The notes under the pieces: generated by a model
Databases searched by the model: none
What the model was told of the DNA's origin: nothing
Seen by the model: only the letters and a program-made list of their open reading frames with translations
Assembly: GCA_027031765.1 (NCBI GenBank)
Contig: JALVPN010000201.1
Location: 1 to 7,025 of the forward strand
DNA from: Promethearchaeota archaeon
GTDB lineage: Archaea; Asgardarchaeota; Thorarchaeia; Thorarchaeales; Thorarchaeaceae
Direction of reading: 5' to 3'
Length of the DNA stretch: 7,025 bases
In this document: in pieces, positions 832 to 6,900 of the stretch
How positions within the stretch are numbered: position 1 is the stretch's first letter
Layout: each line of letters begins with the position of its first letter
Program-made: the position numbers and the translations under genes

Positions 832-1995
832 TTGACCGAAGCGGCCGAGACCACCACCGAAGACATAGAGTTCCTGCGAGCGCGCCTCAGAGAGCTCAAG
901 AGTCAGGCACGGAGAGACCTCGAGGAACTCCGCAGATACCGCGACAAGATGAGAGAGTACAGGGCAATACGTGACGAGCACAACCGTGAGGTGAGGAGCC
1001 TCATCGAGTCCGTCAAGGCTGAGCGCGAGGCACGCGACCGCATCAATGCCCAGATACAGGAGCTGAAGGAGCGACGTTCGGCTCTGCACAGGCAGCTCAA
1101 AGAGATCTACGATGAGATCAGGGAGCTGCGTGGCAGCATAGTCGGCAGCCCCTCCTCAGACCAGCGTCGTATGATGCGTCGTGTGGAAGAACTCGAGTGG
1201 CGCCAGCAGACAGAACCCCTCACTCTCGAAGAGGAACGTGCCATCGTCGAGGAGATTGCCCGCATCGAGGCGAAGCTTGTCAAGATTGGCCAGGAGAAAG
1301 AGAAACAGGACCGCATCAGCGAGCTCCGCCGGCTGGCACGACGCCTCAAGGACGAGGCCTCGAAGGTCCACCAGCAGGTGCTCGAACTCTCCGAACAGTC
1401 ACAGATACACCACCTGCAGGTGGTACAGTGCCGAACGAAGCTCGAAGAGTACAAGCGTTCTGCCGACACCGCCCACCAGAACTTTGTCGAGTGGCTCAAG
1501 AAGGTCAAGGAGGGCGAGGCACAGCTCAAGAAGCTCCGCGCCGAGATCGCTGAGATTGAGGCCAAGATAAAGAAGTGGGAGGCCGAACACGGCCGCGTCG
1601 ACCGGCGTGCACAGGCCCGGATGGCCGAGTGGGAGCGTGCCCAAGAGGCAGTTGCAAAGCTCGAGTCCGGCAAGCGTCTGACCTTTGACGAGTTCATAAT
1701 CGCACAGCGCTATTCCGAGAGGGCCCGTCGTGAGAAGCGGGCCGGGAGGGGCGCTCGTGAAGAAGAGAGCACTCCTGCTGCTGATGCGACCGAGAGTCCC
1801 GGGGCAGGCGGGTCTGATGCTGGACAGGAGACCGGGGATGCCGACACGGGCCCGGCAGGTGCCGCAGAGCCCACCAGTACGGCGGCGGAGGTCGTCGAAG
1901 GATCCAGTGCCACCAGCACATCAGGGGAGGACGCGGCAGGGCCGGGGTCACCAGCGTCCGGGGACACCACCGGGGAAGACATCAGCGAGGAGTAG
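832..1995 (+). CDS. Archaeal coiled-coil protein (COG1340-like) with a ~93-aa acidic low-complexity C-terminal tail
   Basis: 387 aa, E/K/R/L-rich heptads. Motifs ELEWRQQTEPLTLEEERAIVEEIARIE and AQEAVAKLESGKRLTFDEFII resemble the 'QQT..L..EEE' and C-terminal 'GEKLT.EDL' signatures of COG1340 proteins as recalled. TTG start with GAGG/GGAG upstream. Confidence 0.85.
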   Translation: MTEAAETTTEDIEFLRARLRELKSQARRDLEELRRYRDKMREYRAIRDEHNREVRSLIESVKAEREARDRINAQIQELKERRSALHRQLKEIYDEIRELRGSIVGSPSSDQRRMMRRVEELEWRQQTEPLTLEEERAIVEEIARIEAKLVKIGQEKEKQDRISELRRLARRLKDEASKVHQQVLELSEQSQIHHLQVVQCRTKLEEYKRSADTAHQNFVEWLKKVKEGEAQLKKLRAEIAEIEAKIKKWEAEHGRVDRRAQARMAEWERAQEAVAKLESGKRLTFDEFIIAQRYSERARREKRAGRGAREEESTPAADATESPGAGGSDAGQETGDADTGPAGAAEPTSTAAEVVEGSSATSTSGEDAAGPGSPASGDTTGEDISEE

Positions 1996-2061: not shown

Positions 2062-3321
2062 GTGAGCAGTGCGAGTCAGAGGCCTGTTGGTCGTCGTTCA
2101 GCAGCACTGGTCTTCTACCTCCTCGCAATGGGCTCTGGCGTGATGCGGACGGTCTCGGTCGTCTTCGATGTGGTGGCACTCAACACGGTGCTCCCCCAGC
2201 CGCTCGCCTTCGGCCTGCTCTCACAGTGGGTGAGCTTTCTCGTCACAGCCACCGCCATTGTGTTCCTCAGTGTCCCGCACACCGTGGACGGACACCGGCG
2301 GGCACTCGGCTACTCCCTAGACCCTGACTTTGGTAGGATTGGCCTCCTGCCACGCCGGCCGCTGGCATACATGGCACTGGCAGGACTGTTTGCAGGTGTG
2401 TCGACGTTCTTCTACTACATCCTTGTCGGTTCCACCGATGCCTCTGCGGTCCTCCCATATGGCCAGCTCGTGCTCGTGTACCTCCTCCTGGGTGACCTCG
2501 TGTCCGAGAAGGACACCCCCACCATTGTCGAGGTGCAGTGCGTCCTGTCCGTCATGATTGGCGTGATGCTCGTCGGCGTGTCACCCGGGGGCTTCGATGT
2601 CATGACGCTGCTCGTCGTCCTGGGGCCCATGAACGTGGCCTCGGCACTGGTGACGTACTTCCAGCGCCAGACAAAGCGGATGGAGGTCGGACCGGGGCTC
2701 CACGTTGACTCCCTGAACATGCGGCTGTGGTCACTGCTCTTCCTGGACCTGACCTTCACGGCCCTCGTGCTCCCACTGCTCGGCCCGTCCGACTATGAGC
2801 TGATGGTCACCAACTTCGTCCCGCTCCTGTGGCTGATGGTCGGCTCCTCCCTGACGATTTTCCTCTCCCTGGTGTTCTACGTCCGCGCCCTCGGCAGGGG
2901 CTCCATGGCCGTTGTGAACTCCCTCGCGTCAGTGTCCGTCGTGCTGGGCCTCCCACTGACCGTGGTCGGTGACCTGTTCCTGCCCGGTGCCTTCGGAGAG
3001 TTGCCTTCCGACCCCTTCACATGGTCGCTCCGCCTCTTCGGCGTCCTCCTCGTGATGATAGGAGTGGTCGCACTGGAGGCTGCCGATGTCCGCTCAATCG
3101 TCCTGATCTCTGTCCGCACCGGGACTGGCGACATCCTGCCCGCGCTCTTTGACATCAAGGGTGTAGAGAAGGCCTCAGCAGTGGCCGGTACCTTCGACTA
3201 CCTGCTGTGCATCAAGAGCCGCAGCCTCGGCAAGACCCGCACCAACATACTCAAGAGGGTGCAGGAAATCGAGGGCGTCATCGAGGTGAGGACGCTCGTC
3301 GTGCTCAGGGACTACCGCTAA
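2062..3321 (+). CDS. EamA/DMT-superfamily 10-TM transporter fused to a C-terminal Lrp/AsnC ligand-binding (RAM) domain
   Basis: Ten hydrophobic segments in two EamA-like repeats (FYYILVGSTDASAVLPYGQL...IGVMLV; FYVRALGRGSMAVVNSLASV...GVLLVMIGVVAL). Residues 343-419 (nt 3088-3318) show the RAM beta-alpha-beta-beta-alpha-beta pattern with G-T-F-D and VQEIEGVIEVRTLVV. GTG start with GGGGGT SD at 2050-2055. Confidence 0.88.
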   Translation: MSSASQRPVGRRSAALVFYLLAMGSGVMRTVSVVFDVVALNTVLPQPLAFGLLSQWVSFLVTATAIVFLSVPHTVDGHRRALGYSLDPDFGRIGLLPRRPLAYMALAGLFAGVSTFFYYILVGSTDASAVLPYGQLVLVYLLLGDLVSEKDTPTIVEVQCVLSVMIGVMLVGVSPGGFDVMTLLVVLGPMNVASALVTYFQRQTKRMEVGPGLHVDSLNMRLWSLLFLDLTFTALVLPLLGPSDYELMVTNFVPLLWLMVGSSLTIFLSLVFYVRALGRGSMAVVNSLASVSVVLGLPLTVVGDLFLPGAFGELPSDPFTWSLRLFGVLLVMIGVVALEAADVRSIVLISVRTGTGDILPALFDIKGVEKASAVAGTFDYLLCIKSRSLGKTRTNILKRVQEIEGVIEVRTLVVLRDYR

Positions 3322-3345
3322 CTGTTCCATGGGGTGAGACTCGAA

Positions 3346-3591
3346 TTGACAGTCATGGCCTACATCCTTATGGTCACCGAAATCGGCCGGACCGATGAGG
3401 TGATAGAACAGCTCCGCCTCGTCAATGAGGCGGTGCGCGTCGCAGTCACCACGGGAGAGTATGATGTCGTCGTGCTCGTGGAAGTGGACGACCTTGCAGC
3501 ACTGTATGATGTCACCGTGCAGCGGATCCACAAGATACCGGGCATAGTCGCCACCACCACCGCCGTCGTCGAGAAGATGATATCGGTGTAG
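3346..3591 (+). CDS. Stand-alone Lrp/AsnC ligand-binding (RAM) domain protein with no HTH (COG1522-type, 'demi-FFRP')
   Basis: (M)TVMAYILMVTEIGRTDEVIEQLRLVNEAVRVAVTTGEYDVVVLVEVDDLAALYDVTVQRIHKIPGIVATTTAVV, with canonical TGEYD and I.KIPGI..T.T motifs. TTG at 3346 is preferred because GGGGTGA (3331-3337) is an SD at correct spacing. Alternative starts are GTG 3334 and ATG 3355. Confidence 0.92.
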   Translation: MTVMAYILMVTEIGRTDEVIEQLRLVNEAVRVAVTTGEYDVVVLVEVDDLAALYDVTVQRIHKIPGIVATTTAVVEKMISV

Positions 3592-6443: not shown

Positions 6444-6498
6444 GCCAGCCGCACGTCTCTGTCAGGGGGACATCTTGCGTGTTGTTGGTGGTCCAAAA

Positions 6499-6900
6499 AT
6501 GAACGATGATGAGGTTGGGCACCCGGAGGACGTGCCCCTGTTCCCAATCCTGCGTGGCGAGTCAGTTGGGGAGAACGGCGAGCTCAGTGGCCATGCCGTA
6601 CTTGTGTTCAGACCCGAACAGCTCAACCGCGAGTGGGGGCCTGACGACATTGCAGTCCTCAATAAAGACCTTGAGGACCACTTCCGTGACAACCCGGGCG
6701 ACCTCGACTCACTGCTCGCCCAGGTCAGAGGCGTCATCGCAGAGTTCGGCGAGCCTGTCGGCGACCTCGCGTCCCTCGCCTACGTACGGGAAGTGATATG
6801 TATCACCAAGACAAGGGACGCGACGTTCGTCCTCGAAGATGACATGCACATACGCCTGGTGGCAAACGAGAACACTGGTGAGGTCTTCTTCATAGACTAG
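6499..6900 (+). CDS. Stand-alone PEP-utilizing-enzyme mobile (swiveling beta/beta/alpha, phosphohistidine-carrier-like) domain protein, degenerate at the phospho-His
   Basis: Aligns by eye to the PF00391-type pattern along its length: ILRGESVG..GELSGHAVLVFRPEQL...GPDDIAVL...GVIAEFGEPVGDLASLAYVREVICI...DATFVLEDDMHIRLVANENTGEVFF. Start is ATG 6499 (GGTGGT SD) or TTG 6475 (AGGGGGA SD). Confidence 0.75.
   Translation: MNDDEVGHPEDVPLFPILRGESVGENGELSGHAVLVFRPEQLNREWGPDDIAVLNKDLEDHFRDNPGDLDSLLAQVRGVIAEFGEPVGDLASLAYVREVICITKTRDATFVLEDDMHIRLVANENTGEVFFID

What the first reader, a model, noticed from the sequence alone, without database searches (positions are those of the whole stretch)
3088..3591. 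Membrane-tethered basic RAM domain paired with an adjacent free acidic RAM protein: candidate two-part sensing module
Seen: a stand-alone RAM protein starts 24 nt after the fusion's stop codon. Hand charge count: the fused RAM has 13 K/R vs 8 D/E (net about +5); the free RAM has 6 K/R vs 12 D/E (net about -6). The contrast is sharpest after the GxYD strand (KSRSLGKTRTNILKR vs EVDDLAALYDVTVQR). The free copy keeps canonical TGEYD; the tethered copy has AGTFD. Known: Lrp/FFRP RAM domains dimerize and assemble into ligand-dependent octamers, and HTH-less 'demi' proteins (Pyrococcus DM1) hetero-assemble with full-length FFRPs. Inference: the free RAM docks on the transporter's RAM in a ligand-dependent way, analogous to GlnK-AmtB, to gate transport or to sequester Lrp-family factors at the membrane. 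This is the best candidate for an undescribed system here.
Basis: partly seen in the sequence, partly recalled or inferred. Interest (0 to 1): 0.8.

Follow-up and report, generated by a model that had tools for sequence, protein, structure and literature searches.

The report
Asgard transporter with paired RAM sensors
An Asgard archaeon has a 10-helix DMT-type membrane transporter ending in a small-molecule-sensing RAM domain, always followed or preceded by a gene for a free copy of that domain; this conserved pair probably forms a two-part sensor on the transporter, a role not yet described for stand-alone RAM proteins.

Summary
ORF 2062-3321 (419 aa) is a 10-TM DMT-fold protein ending in a RAM (PF01037) domain. 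ORF 3334-3591 is a stand-alone RAM protein. The charge counts are exact.

- A same-strand RAM gene lies within 41 nt of the fusion in 117 of 117 informative Asgard loci (94 unique pairs).
- It lies downstream in the Thorarchaeota family and upstream in 13 other families, so the order changed but the adjacency held.
- The free-RAM orthogroup occurs only beside the fusion.
- Opposite net charge holds in 88 of 94 pairs.

A complex prediction gave only weak support: ipSAE 0.40, best control 0.00.

The charge-docking idea is weakened. All RAM proteins of this genome are acidic. The basic residues of the tethered copy cluster, by fold topology, at its membrane-proximal pole.

Best reading: a dedicated soluble RAM partner co-assembles with the tethered RAM into a small-molecule (probably amino-acid) sensor that controls the transporter. 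The architecture and the substrate are unresolved.

I found no paper describing this. First readers of this scan noted the same pair in three other genomes. It is a new variant of a known kind.

The parts
2062..3321 (+). Gene for the 419-aa DMT-fold transporter with a C-terminal RAM domain (GTG start; homologues are also 419 aa)
   Evidence: ORF. Homologues have 60-65% identity over 100% of the length. AF2 model: pLDDT 82, pTM 0.79.
2062..3081 (+). Membrane domain, residues 1-340: ten TM helices, N-in/C-in
   Evidence: Foldseek matches to SLC35 transporters, TPT, LicB (TMt 0.81), YddG 5i20 and PfCRT, prob 1.00. The inside loops hold 8 K/R and the outside loops 0. No Pfam EamA hit for this protein; homologues score 22-24.5 bits against a cut-off of 28.2.
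3088..3318 (+). Tethered basic RAM domain, residues 343-419, joined to TM10 by about 4 residues
   Evidence: PF01037 at 30 bits. beta-alpha-beta-beta-alpha-beta in the model. Foldseek hits to Lrp/AsnC proteins and the stand-alone RAM 2djw. R387 is kept in 100% of 94 orthologues.
3322..3333 (+). 12-nt spacer between the fusion's stop codon and the first in-frame start of the free RAM gene
   Evidence: Sequence. Spacers in 94 orthologous pairs range from -53 to +41 nt.
3334..3591 (+). Gene for the free acidic stand-alone RAM protein (85 aa from GTG 3334, 81 aa from TTG 3346, 78 aa from ATG 3355)
   Evidence: PF01037 at 46.4 bits. Closest solved relatives are the stand-alone RAM proteins 2zbc (E 4e-14) and DM1 2e1a/2z4p (E 2e-13).

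Best explanation
This is a conserved two-gene module of Asgard archaea. The first gene encodes a 10-TM DMT-superfamily transporter whose cytoplasmic C-terminus is a RAM (Lrp/AsnC ligand-binding) domain. The second encodes a dedicated soluble stand-alone RAM protein.

The two RAM copies most likely co-assemble on the cytoplasmic face of the transporter. They would form a hetero-oligomeric small-molecule sensor, probably for an amino acid, since that is the usual ligand class of RAM domains. The ligand-dependent assembly state would switch transport on or off after translation.

Shown: the domain architecture, the topology, the strict co-occurrence and adjacency, and retention of the ligand-backbone-binding Asp and Thr residues.

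Inferred: physical binding, ligand class, substrate, direction of control and stoichiometry. Two stoichiometries are possible. One is a 1:1 heterodimer. The other is a tethered homodimer flanked by free dimers at the dimer-dimer interfaces where Lrp-type ligand pockets form.
For: Architecture:
- Pfam RAM matches in both proteins.
- AF2 model with pLDDT 82 and a DMT fold by Foldseek.
- Positive-inside rule: 8 K/R inside and 0 outside, which places the RAM domain in the cytoplasm.

Gene linkage:
- A same-strand RAM gene lies within 41 nt of the fusion in 117 of 117 informative loci (75 downstream, 40 upstream, 2 both). These make 94 unique pairs.
- The same holds in a Nanohaloarchaea MAG and in a MAG labelled 'Thermoprotei'.
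- The other neighbours (DUF7121, ABC transporter) are conserved only within families f1 and f2.

Orthology:
- The fused RAMs form one clade (SH-aLRT 94).
- The upstream and downstream free RAMs intermix.
- Both groups sit apart from 9 other RAMs of this genome, with weak support of 79.
- Over 301 Asgard genomes, every full-length match of 79 bits or more to the free-RAM profile lies beside a fusion gene or at a contig end. Genomes without the fusion reach only E 1e-13 to 1e-19.

Ligand residues: the Grp ligand residues D102, T132 and T134 (PMC2504300) correspond in the free copy to D (100%), T (87%) and T (100%). In the tethered copy they correspond to D379 (97%), V409 and T411 (87%).

Precedents:
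- RAM proteins assemble as dimers and octamers, with the ligand bound at dimer-dimer interfaces.
- The stand-alone RAM protein DM1 forms hetero-octamers with the full-length regulator FL11 (PMC2995911).

Complex prediction, full-length fusion plus free RAM:
- ipSAE was 0.40 (three runs: 0.39, 0.40, 0.40) and the best of 3 controls was 0.00. The verdict was 'weak support'.
- In the calibration the mark was reached by 58 of 80 solved complexes and by 2 of 110 mismatched pairs.
- A score of 0.60 or under was seen in only 7 of those 80 solved complexes, and in both mismatched pairs that passed.
- The runs agree in at least 76% of their contacts, and the partner's pLDDT is at least 80.
- RAM-RAM dimers have been solved, so this pass may reflect likeness to known structures.
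Against: - The complex score is weak, and no interface was reported.
- I could not run a comparison of homodimer against heterodimer.
- No natural protein that carries both RAM copies in one chain was seen among 105 cluster representatives at 50% identity.
- The acidity of the free copy is generic for RAM proteins of this genome, net -1 to -9, so charge complementarity is not specific evidence.
- Canonical Lrp-type pockets need a dimer-dimer interface, which a lone 1:1 heterodimer would lack.
- The tethered copy has lost the first Thr of the T-x-T motif.
- The substrate is unknown, and the window protein does not reach the Pfam EamA threshold.
Confidence: 0.55

Rival explanations
1. The two genes share an operon but the proteins do not touch. 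The free RAM would be an independent small-molecule-binding protein, for example a homo-oligomeric buffer, chaperone or regulator for the transported compound. The transporter's own RAM would act alone, for example by homodimerising two transporters.
For: Stand-alone RAM proteins form homo-oligomers and their physiological role is unsettled (PMC2995911). This genome has at least five other stand-alone RAM genes not linked to a transporter. The complex score is only weak. A radial two-fold axis in Lrp dimers would suit a homodimer of two tethered copies (my inference from the known octamer geometry).
Against: The orthogroup occurs strictly beside the fusion. Adjacency survives a change of gene order across 14 or more families. 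The free and fused RAM trees show the same family groupings.
Confidence: 0.2
2. One reading: the acidic free RAM docks electrostatically on the basic tethered RAM and plugs or gates the transporter, as GlnK does on AmtB.
For: Opposite net charge holds in 88 of 94 pairs. The sharpest contrast is fused K385/R387/K391/R393 against free E48/E53/E54/D57. The operon logic is conserved, as it is for glnK-amtB.
Against: Other RAM domains of this genome are equally acidic. By ferredoxin-fold topology, the end of beta3 and the start of alpha2 lie at the same pole as the N-terminus of beta1, which is tied to TM10 by about 4 residues. The basic cluster therefore probably faces the membrane or the conserved acidic loops (D87 and D216 are invariant), not the partner. 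The equivalent faces of two RAM subunits do not meet in known RAM dimers, which pack sheet to sheet (PMC2504300). The fold is not PII.
Confidence: 0.1
3. The free RAM links the transporter to transcription. It would hetero-assemble with full-length Lrp-type regulators, and the tethered RAM would sequester them at the membrane.
For: DM1 forms hetero-octamers with the full-length FL11 in vitro (PMC2995911). The genome encodes full-length Lrp-like proteins of 145-168 aa.
Against: No Lrp-type gene is conserved next to the pair. Nothing in the data ties the free RAM to a DNA-binding partner.
Confidence: 0.07

Closest known systems
Stand-alone RAM ('demi-FFRP') proteins: DM1 of Pyrococcus horikoshii (2e1a/2z4p) and STS042 of Sulfolobus tokodaii (2zbc)
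   Same: A single RAM domain of 75-85 aa without an HTH. The alignment is full-length and gap-free, with E 2e-13 and 4e-14. The Asp and T-x-T ligand residues are kept. DM1 hetero-assembles with another RAM-bearing protein (PMC2995911).
   Different: Here the partner implied by gene linkage is a membrane transporter, not a DNA-binding regulator. The orthogroup is tied to one neighbouring gene across a phylum.
Lrp/AsnC (FFRP) transcription regulators, including Lrp/AsnC regulators that control divergent EamA transporter genes (PA2577-PA2576, PMC8707732)
   Same: The same ligand-binding domain family, and a functional pairing of a RAM sensor with a DMT/EamA transporter.
   Different: There is no HTH. 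The RAM is fused to the transporter itself, so control would act on the protein rather than on transcription. Database names such as 'Lrp/AsnC family transcriptional regulator' are therefore wrong for this protein.
Transporters and channels with tethered plus soluble copies of one regulatory domain (MthK RCK ring, Trk/Ktr with TrkA/KtrA), and the ligand-binding C2 domains of MetNI; from my own knowledge
   Same: A cytoplasmic ligand-binding domain on a transporter that works through oligomerisation, in some cases with free copies of the same domain.
   Different: The fold differs (RAM, not RCK or ACT-like C2). The carrier is a DMT protein. The free copy comes from its own gene rather than from an internal start.
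GlnK-AmtB
   Same: A conserved operon of a small soluble sensor protein and a membrane transporter.
   Different: GlnK has the PII fold and AmtB has no tethered copy. Docking is shown for GlnK-AmtB and only weakly predicted here.
AhbA/AhbB sirohaem decarboxylase (PMC4145669, abstract seen)
   Same: Two paralogous Lrp/AsnC-like proteins that form a heterodimer.
   Different: AhbA/AhbB is an enzyme, is not attached to a membrane, and has no sensing role.
DMT-superfamily carriers: YddG (5i20), LicB (7paf), SLC35 nucleotide-sugar transporters, TPT
   Same: The 10-TM fold, with Foldseek prob 1.00 and TM-score by target of 0.6-0.81.
   Different: Only 10-17% identity. The conserved cytoplasmic loop motifs (around D87, and D216-N219-R221) and the C-terminal RAM domain are specific to this family. 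The substrate is unknown.

Membership tests
RAM / Lrp-AsnC ligand-binding domain (PF01037) | Profile match above Pfam's gathering score | tested here: met
   The tethered copy scores 30 bits and the free copy 46.4 bits, against a cut-off of 25.
RAM / Lrp-AsnC ligand-binding domain (PF01037) | beta-alpha-beta-beta-alpha-beta fold | tested here: met
   The AF2 model has strands 343-351, 368-373, 380-386 and 406-414, and helices 359-363 and 391-402. Foldseek matches 1ri7 and 2djw at rmsd 1.8-2.7. The free copy was not folded. Its gap-free alignment to solved RAM proteins stands in for a fold.
RAM / Lrp-AsnC ligand-binding domain (PF01037) | Residues that bind the ligand backbone (Grp D102, T132, T134; PMC2504300) | tested here: inconclusive
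   The free copy keeps D (100%), T (87%) and T (100%). The tethered copy keeps D379 (97%) and T411 (87%) but has V409 in place of the first Thr. Ligand binding itself was not tested.
Lrp/AsnC family transcription regulator | N-terminal helix-turn-helix DNA-binding domain | tested here: not met
   Neither protein has an HTH family hit. The N-terminal 340 residues of the fusion are ten TM helices. The free protein is the RAM domain alone.
DMT superfamily / EamA (PF00892) | EamA profile match above the gathering score | tested here: not met
   The window protein has no hit at E 0.01. Homologues score 24.5 and 22.4 bits against a cut-off of 28.2. One homologue carries a precomputed PF00892 hit.
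DMT superfamily / EamA (PF00892) | Ten-TM DMT fold | tested here: met
   36 PDB chains match at E <= 0.001, all of them DMT carriers (SLC35, TPT, LicB, YddG, PfCRT, Vrg4), with TM-score by target up to 0.81. An ESM Atlas EamA cluster matches at TM 0.81.
DMT superfamily / EamA (PF00892) | Transport activity and substrate | not testable with these tools
   This needs proteoliposome or whole-cell assays.
Stand-alone RAM (demi-FFRP, DM1/STS042 type) | A single RAM domain of about 75-90 aa with no other domain | tested here: met
   78-85 aa; orthologues are 79-99 aa. The best PDB matches are DM1 and STS042.
Stand-alone RAM (demi-FFRP, DM1/STS042 type) | Ligand-dependent dimer-octamer assembly and hetero-assembly | not testable with these tools
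   The only data are a 1:1 complex prediction with weak support. SEC-MALS or native mass spectrometry is needed.
GlnK-AmtB type sensor-transporter pair | PII-fold trimeric sensor | tested here: not met
   The soluble protein is a RAM domain, with no PII family hit.
GlnK-AmtB type sensor-transporter pair | Conserved operon of a soluble sensor and a transporter | tested here: met
   117 of 117 informative loci.

The most novel reading that the evidence does not exclude
This would be the first transporter regulated by a RAM domain. The module would be ancestral to much of Asgardarchaeota. A membrane-tethered RAM and a dedicated soluble RAM would build a hetero-oligomeric amino-acid sensor that gates a DMT carrier directly. 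That would give one stand-alone RAM orthogroup a defined physiological job, and it would replace the bacterial 'Lrp regulator controls EamA gene' logic with control at the protein level.
Probability: 0.4. Interest if true: 0.7.

Novelty: new variant of a known kind. Interest (0 to 1): 0.6.

Why it matters
A 2010 review states that the physiological significance of stand-alone RAM proteins remains unclear (PMC2995911). Here one orthogroup of them is tied by strict gene linkage to a single membrane partner across many Asgard families. That yields a directly testable role, with simple experiments: co-purification, a ligand screen and a transport assay.

It would also add the RAM domain to the short list of ligand-binding modules that control transporters after translation (RCK, CBS, PII, ACT-like). 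In addition, it corrects a common mis-annotation of these proteins as transcription regulators.

The module lies in the archaeal lineage closest to eukaryotes, and the carrier has the fold of the SLC35 and TPT carriers. I make no evolutionary claim from that.

Tried and rejected
- Inter-protein covariation. Mean-field DCA on 94 paired RAM sequences had an effective number of only 54. The top couplings were artefacts of conserved or gapped columns, and the best inter-chain pair ranked 251st. It is uninformative.
- Expression. No RNA holder was listed.
- Natural protein carrying both RAM copies in one chain. None was found among 105 representatives. The 460-470-aa forms of family f27 carry an insertion in cytoplasmic loop 2-3, not a second RAM.
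- Literature. Five searches found no description of a DMT-RAM fusion or of its free partner.
- Range outside Asgard. ESM Atlas labels the best-matching cluster 'commonest Thermoplasmatota', with the phylum known for only 14-16 members. That cluster is probably this protein's own, and I could not verify the label. A search from the Nanohaloarchaea member found only 3 clusters.
- Model geometry. I could not measure the position of the basic cluster relative to the membrane or to the loops, so it rests on fold topology.
- Locus L087, which seemed to lack the partner. It has a 100-N gap directly after the fusion's stop codon.
- Bacterial promoter and terminator scan. Not used, because the organism is an archaeon.

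Full report
**What is in the window**

The window is a whole 7025-base contig of a 2.95-Mb Asgard MAG (95% complete). Its closest protein relatives are named Thorarchaeota. The only sequencing run that holds it is from a hydrothermal vent metagenome.

ORF 2062-3321(+) encodes 419 aa, and residues 357-416 match the Lrp/AsnC ligand-binding (RAM) family PF01037 at 30 bits (cut-off 25). The next ORF, 3334-3591(+), matches the same family at 46.4 bits.

The free gene has three in-frame start candidates:
- GTG 3334, 12 nt after the stop.
- TTG 3346, 24 nt after the stop.
- ATG 3355, 33 nt after the stop.

**The membrane part**

Pfam gives no hit for residues 1-340. Some homologues score just under the EamA threshold, at 22-24.5 bits against 28.2.

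An AF2 model built on 28 orthologues (pLDDT 82, pTM 0.79) shows ten long helices followed by a beta-alpha-beta-beta-alpha-beta domain. Foldseek against the PDB returns only DMT-superfamily carriers for the membrane part: SLC35 transporters, the triose-phosphate translocator, LicB (TM-score by target 0.81), YddG and PfCRT. For the tail it returns Lrp/AsnC proteins and a stand-alone RAM.

The cytoplasmic loops hold 8 K/R and the outer loops hold none. The topology is therefore N-in/C-in, and the RAM domain is cytoplasmic, tied to TM10 by about four residues. There is no HTH, so database names such as 'Lrp/AsnC family transcriptional regulator' are wrong.

**Is the pairing conserved?**

I collected loci by four routes:
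- Searches of related genomes.
- Regions fetched from those genomes.
- A scan of one genome per GTDB species, which gave 76 loci, all Asgard by title.
- Two look-ups of distant members.

Of 124 loci, 117 have readable flanks. All 117 carry a same-strand RAM gene within 41 nt of the fusion: 75 downstream, 40 upstream and 2 on both sides. These make 94 unique pairs. The seven uninformative loci end at a contig edge or, for L087, at a 100-N gap.

In the window's own family the free gene is downstream. In 13 other families it is upstream. The order changed while the adjacency was kept. The other neighbours (a DUF7121 coiled-coil protein and an ABC transporter) are conserved only within the window's family and order.

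**Orthology and distribution**

A quick maximum-likelihood tree shows three things:
- The fused RAMs form one clade (SH-aLRT 94).
- Upstream and downstream free RAMs intermix as one orthogroup.
- Both groups sit apart from nine other RAM domains of this genome, with weak support of 79.

A profile of the free RAM searched over 301 Asgard genomes is bimodal. Every full-length match of 79 bits or more lies beside a fusion gene or at a contig end. Genomes without the fusion reach only E 1e-13 to 1e-19.

The fusion itself is in 133 of 301 sampled Asgard genomes:
- It is near-universal in some families (65/76, 18/19, 9/11).
- It was not found in others (0/68, 0/21).

Named members include Thor-, Hod-, Loki-, Odin-, Baldr-, Hermod- and Heimdallarchaeota. 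One Nanohaloarchaea MAG also has it. So does one MAG labelled 'Thermoprotei', whose contig also carries an Arf/Ras-type GTPase gene.

**Charge**

Opposite net charge holds in 88 of 94 pairs, with a median of +4 for the tethered copy and -5 for the free copy. The tethered copy has K385, R387 (100%), K391 and R393. The free copy has E48, E53 (95%), E54 and D57 at the matching positions.

Two points weaken the docking reading. First, the other RAM domains of this genome are also acidic, net -1 to -9, so only the basic tethered copy is unusual.

Second, there is the position of the basic cluster. In the ferredoxin-like fold, the end of beta3 and the start of alpha2 lie at the same pole as the N-terminus of beta1. 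Here that N-terminus is fixed to TM10. The basic cluster therefore most likely faces the membrane or the transporter's conserved cytoplasmic loops, where D87 and D216 are invariant.

**Ligand site**

In Grp the effector is held by D102 of one dimer and by T132 and T134 of the neighbouring dimer. The two Thr residues are conserved throughout the family (PMC2504300). Ligands sit at dimer-dimer interfaces (PMC2995911).

The free RAM keeps all three residues: D 100%, T 87% and T 100%. The tethered RAM keeps D379 (97%) and T411 (87%) but has V409 in place of the first Thr. Both copies thus look competent to contribute to a pocket. A canonical pocket would need more than one dimer.

**Binding**

One complex job, the full-length fusion plus the free RAM with my alignments, gave 'weak support':
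- ipSAE was 0.40 and the best of three controls was 0.00.
- The calibration mark was reached by 58 of 80 solved complexes and by 2 of 110 mismatched pairs.
- Scores of 0.60 or under were seen in only 7 of those 80 solved complexes, and in both mismatched pairs that passed.
- The runs agree in at least 76% of contacts, and the partner's pLDDT is at least 80.
- RAM-RAM dimers have been solved, so the pass may reflect likeness to known structures.
- No interface was reported.

I could not compare hetero- with homo-assemblies. Covariation analysis was underpowered, and no RNA data were available.

**Mechanism**

The best-supported reading is that the free RAM is a dedicated partner of the tethered RAM. 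Together they would form the sensor that controls the DMT carrier after translation. Two architectures fit the known geometry of Lrp assemblies:
- A 1:1 heterodimer, in which the free copy supplies the missing half of a RAM dimer under a single transporter.
- A homodimer of two tethered copies, with its two-fold axis along the membrane normal, flanked by free dimers at the ligand-binding dimer-dimer interfaces. This would resemble the DM1-FL11 hetero-octamer (PMC2995911).

The ligand class (amino acids) and the substrate are inferred from family habits only. RAM effectors are amino acids. Many EamA carriers handle amino acids and related metabolites. In bacteria, Lrp/AsnC regulators control neighbouring EamA genes (PMC8707732).

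**Novelty**

Five literature searches found no description of this fusion or of its partner. First readers of this scan noted the same pair in three other genomes.

Transporters governed by fused or soluble ligand-binding domains are well known. A RAM domain in this role, with a dedicated soluble copy, is a new variant of that kind.

Noticed in passing
L053:1935-2186 and L055:3775-4026: Two Asgard families (f14, f25) carry a second, divergent free RAM gene downstream of the fusion as well as the usual upstream one. These loci therefore hold three RAM copies. The extra copies form their own long-branched clade.
   Followed up: partly
L046-L049 (family f27): The fusion is 460-470 aa here because about 35-45 residues are inserted in cytoplasmic loop 2-3, next to the conserved acidic loop motif.
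   Followed up: no
window 832-1995 (+): A 387-aa coiled-coil protein of family DUF7121 with an acidic, low-complexity C-terminal tail. It is a conserved upstream neighbour of the pair only within the window's family and order.
   Followed up: partly
window 6475-6900 (+): A 141-aa ORF without any Pfam match at E 0.01. An earlier first-reader note (e1-5456050) calls it a swivelling phosphocarrier-like domain with Asp in place of the phospho-histidine.
   Followed up: no
L063:1-336: The contig of a MAG labelled 'Thermoprotei' that carries the pair also encodes an Arf/Ras/Roc-type small GTPase, which is typical of Asgard archaea. The label may be wrong.
   Followed up: no
L062 (Nanohaloarchaea MAG): A shorter fusion of 381 aa, with an upstream free RAM, sits among genes for an M20 peptidase, two GNAT acetyltransferases and an MR/MLE-type enzyme. 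This is a context related to amino acids or peptides.
   Followed up: no
P0170-P0223: RAM-less relatives of the membrane domain, about 335 aa long, match residues 80-340 only (E 1e-12 to 1e-4). They occur in bacteria such as candidate division WWE3 and filamentous cyanobacteria. None reaches a Pfam family.
   Followed up: partly
G115: C266:190-1658 and C138:2685-4143: One Asgard genome holds two separate fusion-plus-free-RAM pairs on different contigs. This could be a paralogous duplication or a mix of strains.
   Followed up: no
ESM Atlas cluster, row 4: A cluster of isopropylmalate/homocitrate-synthase-like enzymes carries a RAM domain in 96% of its members. This is another case of RAM used as an add-on to a protein that does not bind DNA.
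   Followed up: no
G000 loci L003, L004, L006, L008, L011: The genome encodes at least five further stand-alone RAM proteins (77-108 aa), all acidic and none next to a transporter in the stretches fetched.
   Followed up: partly
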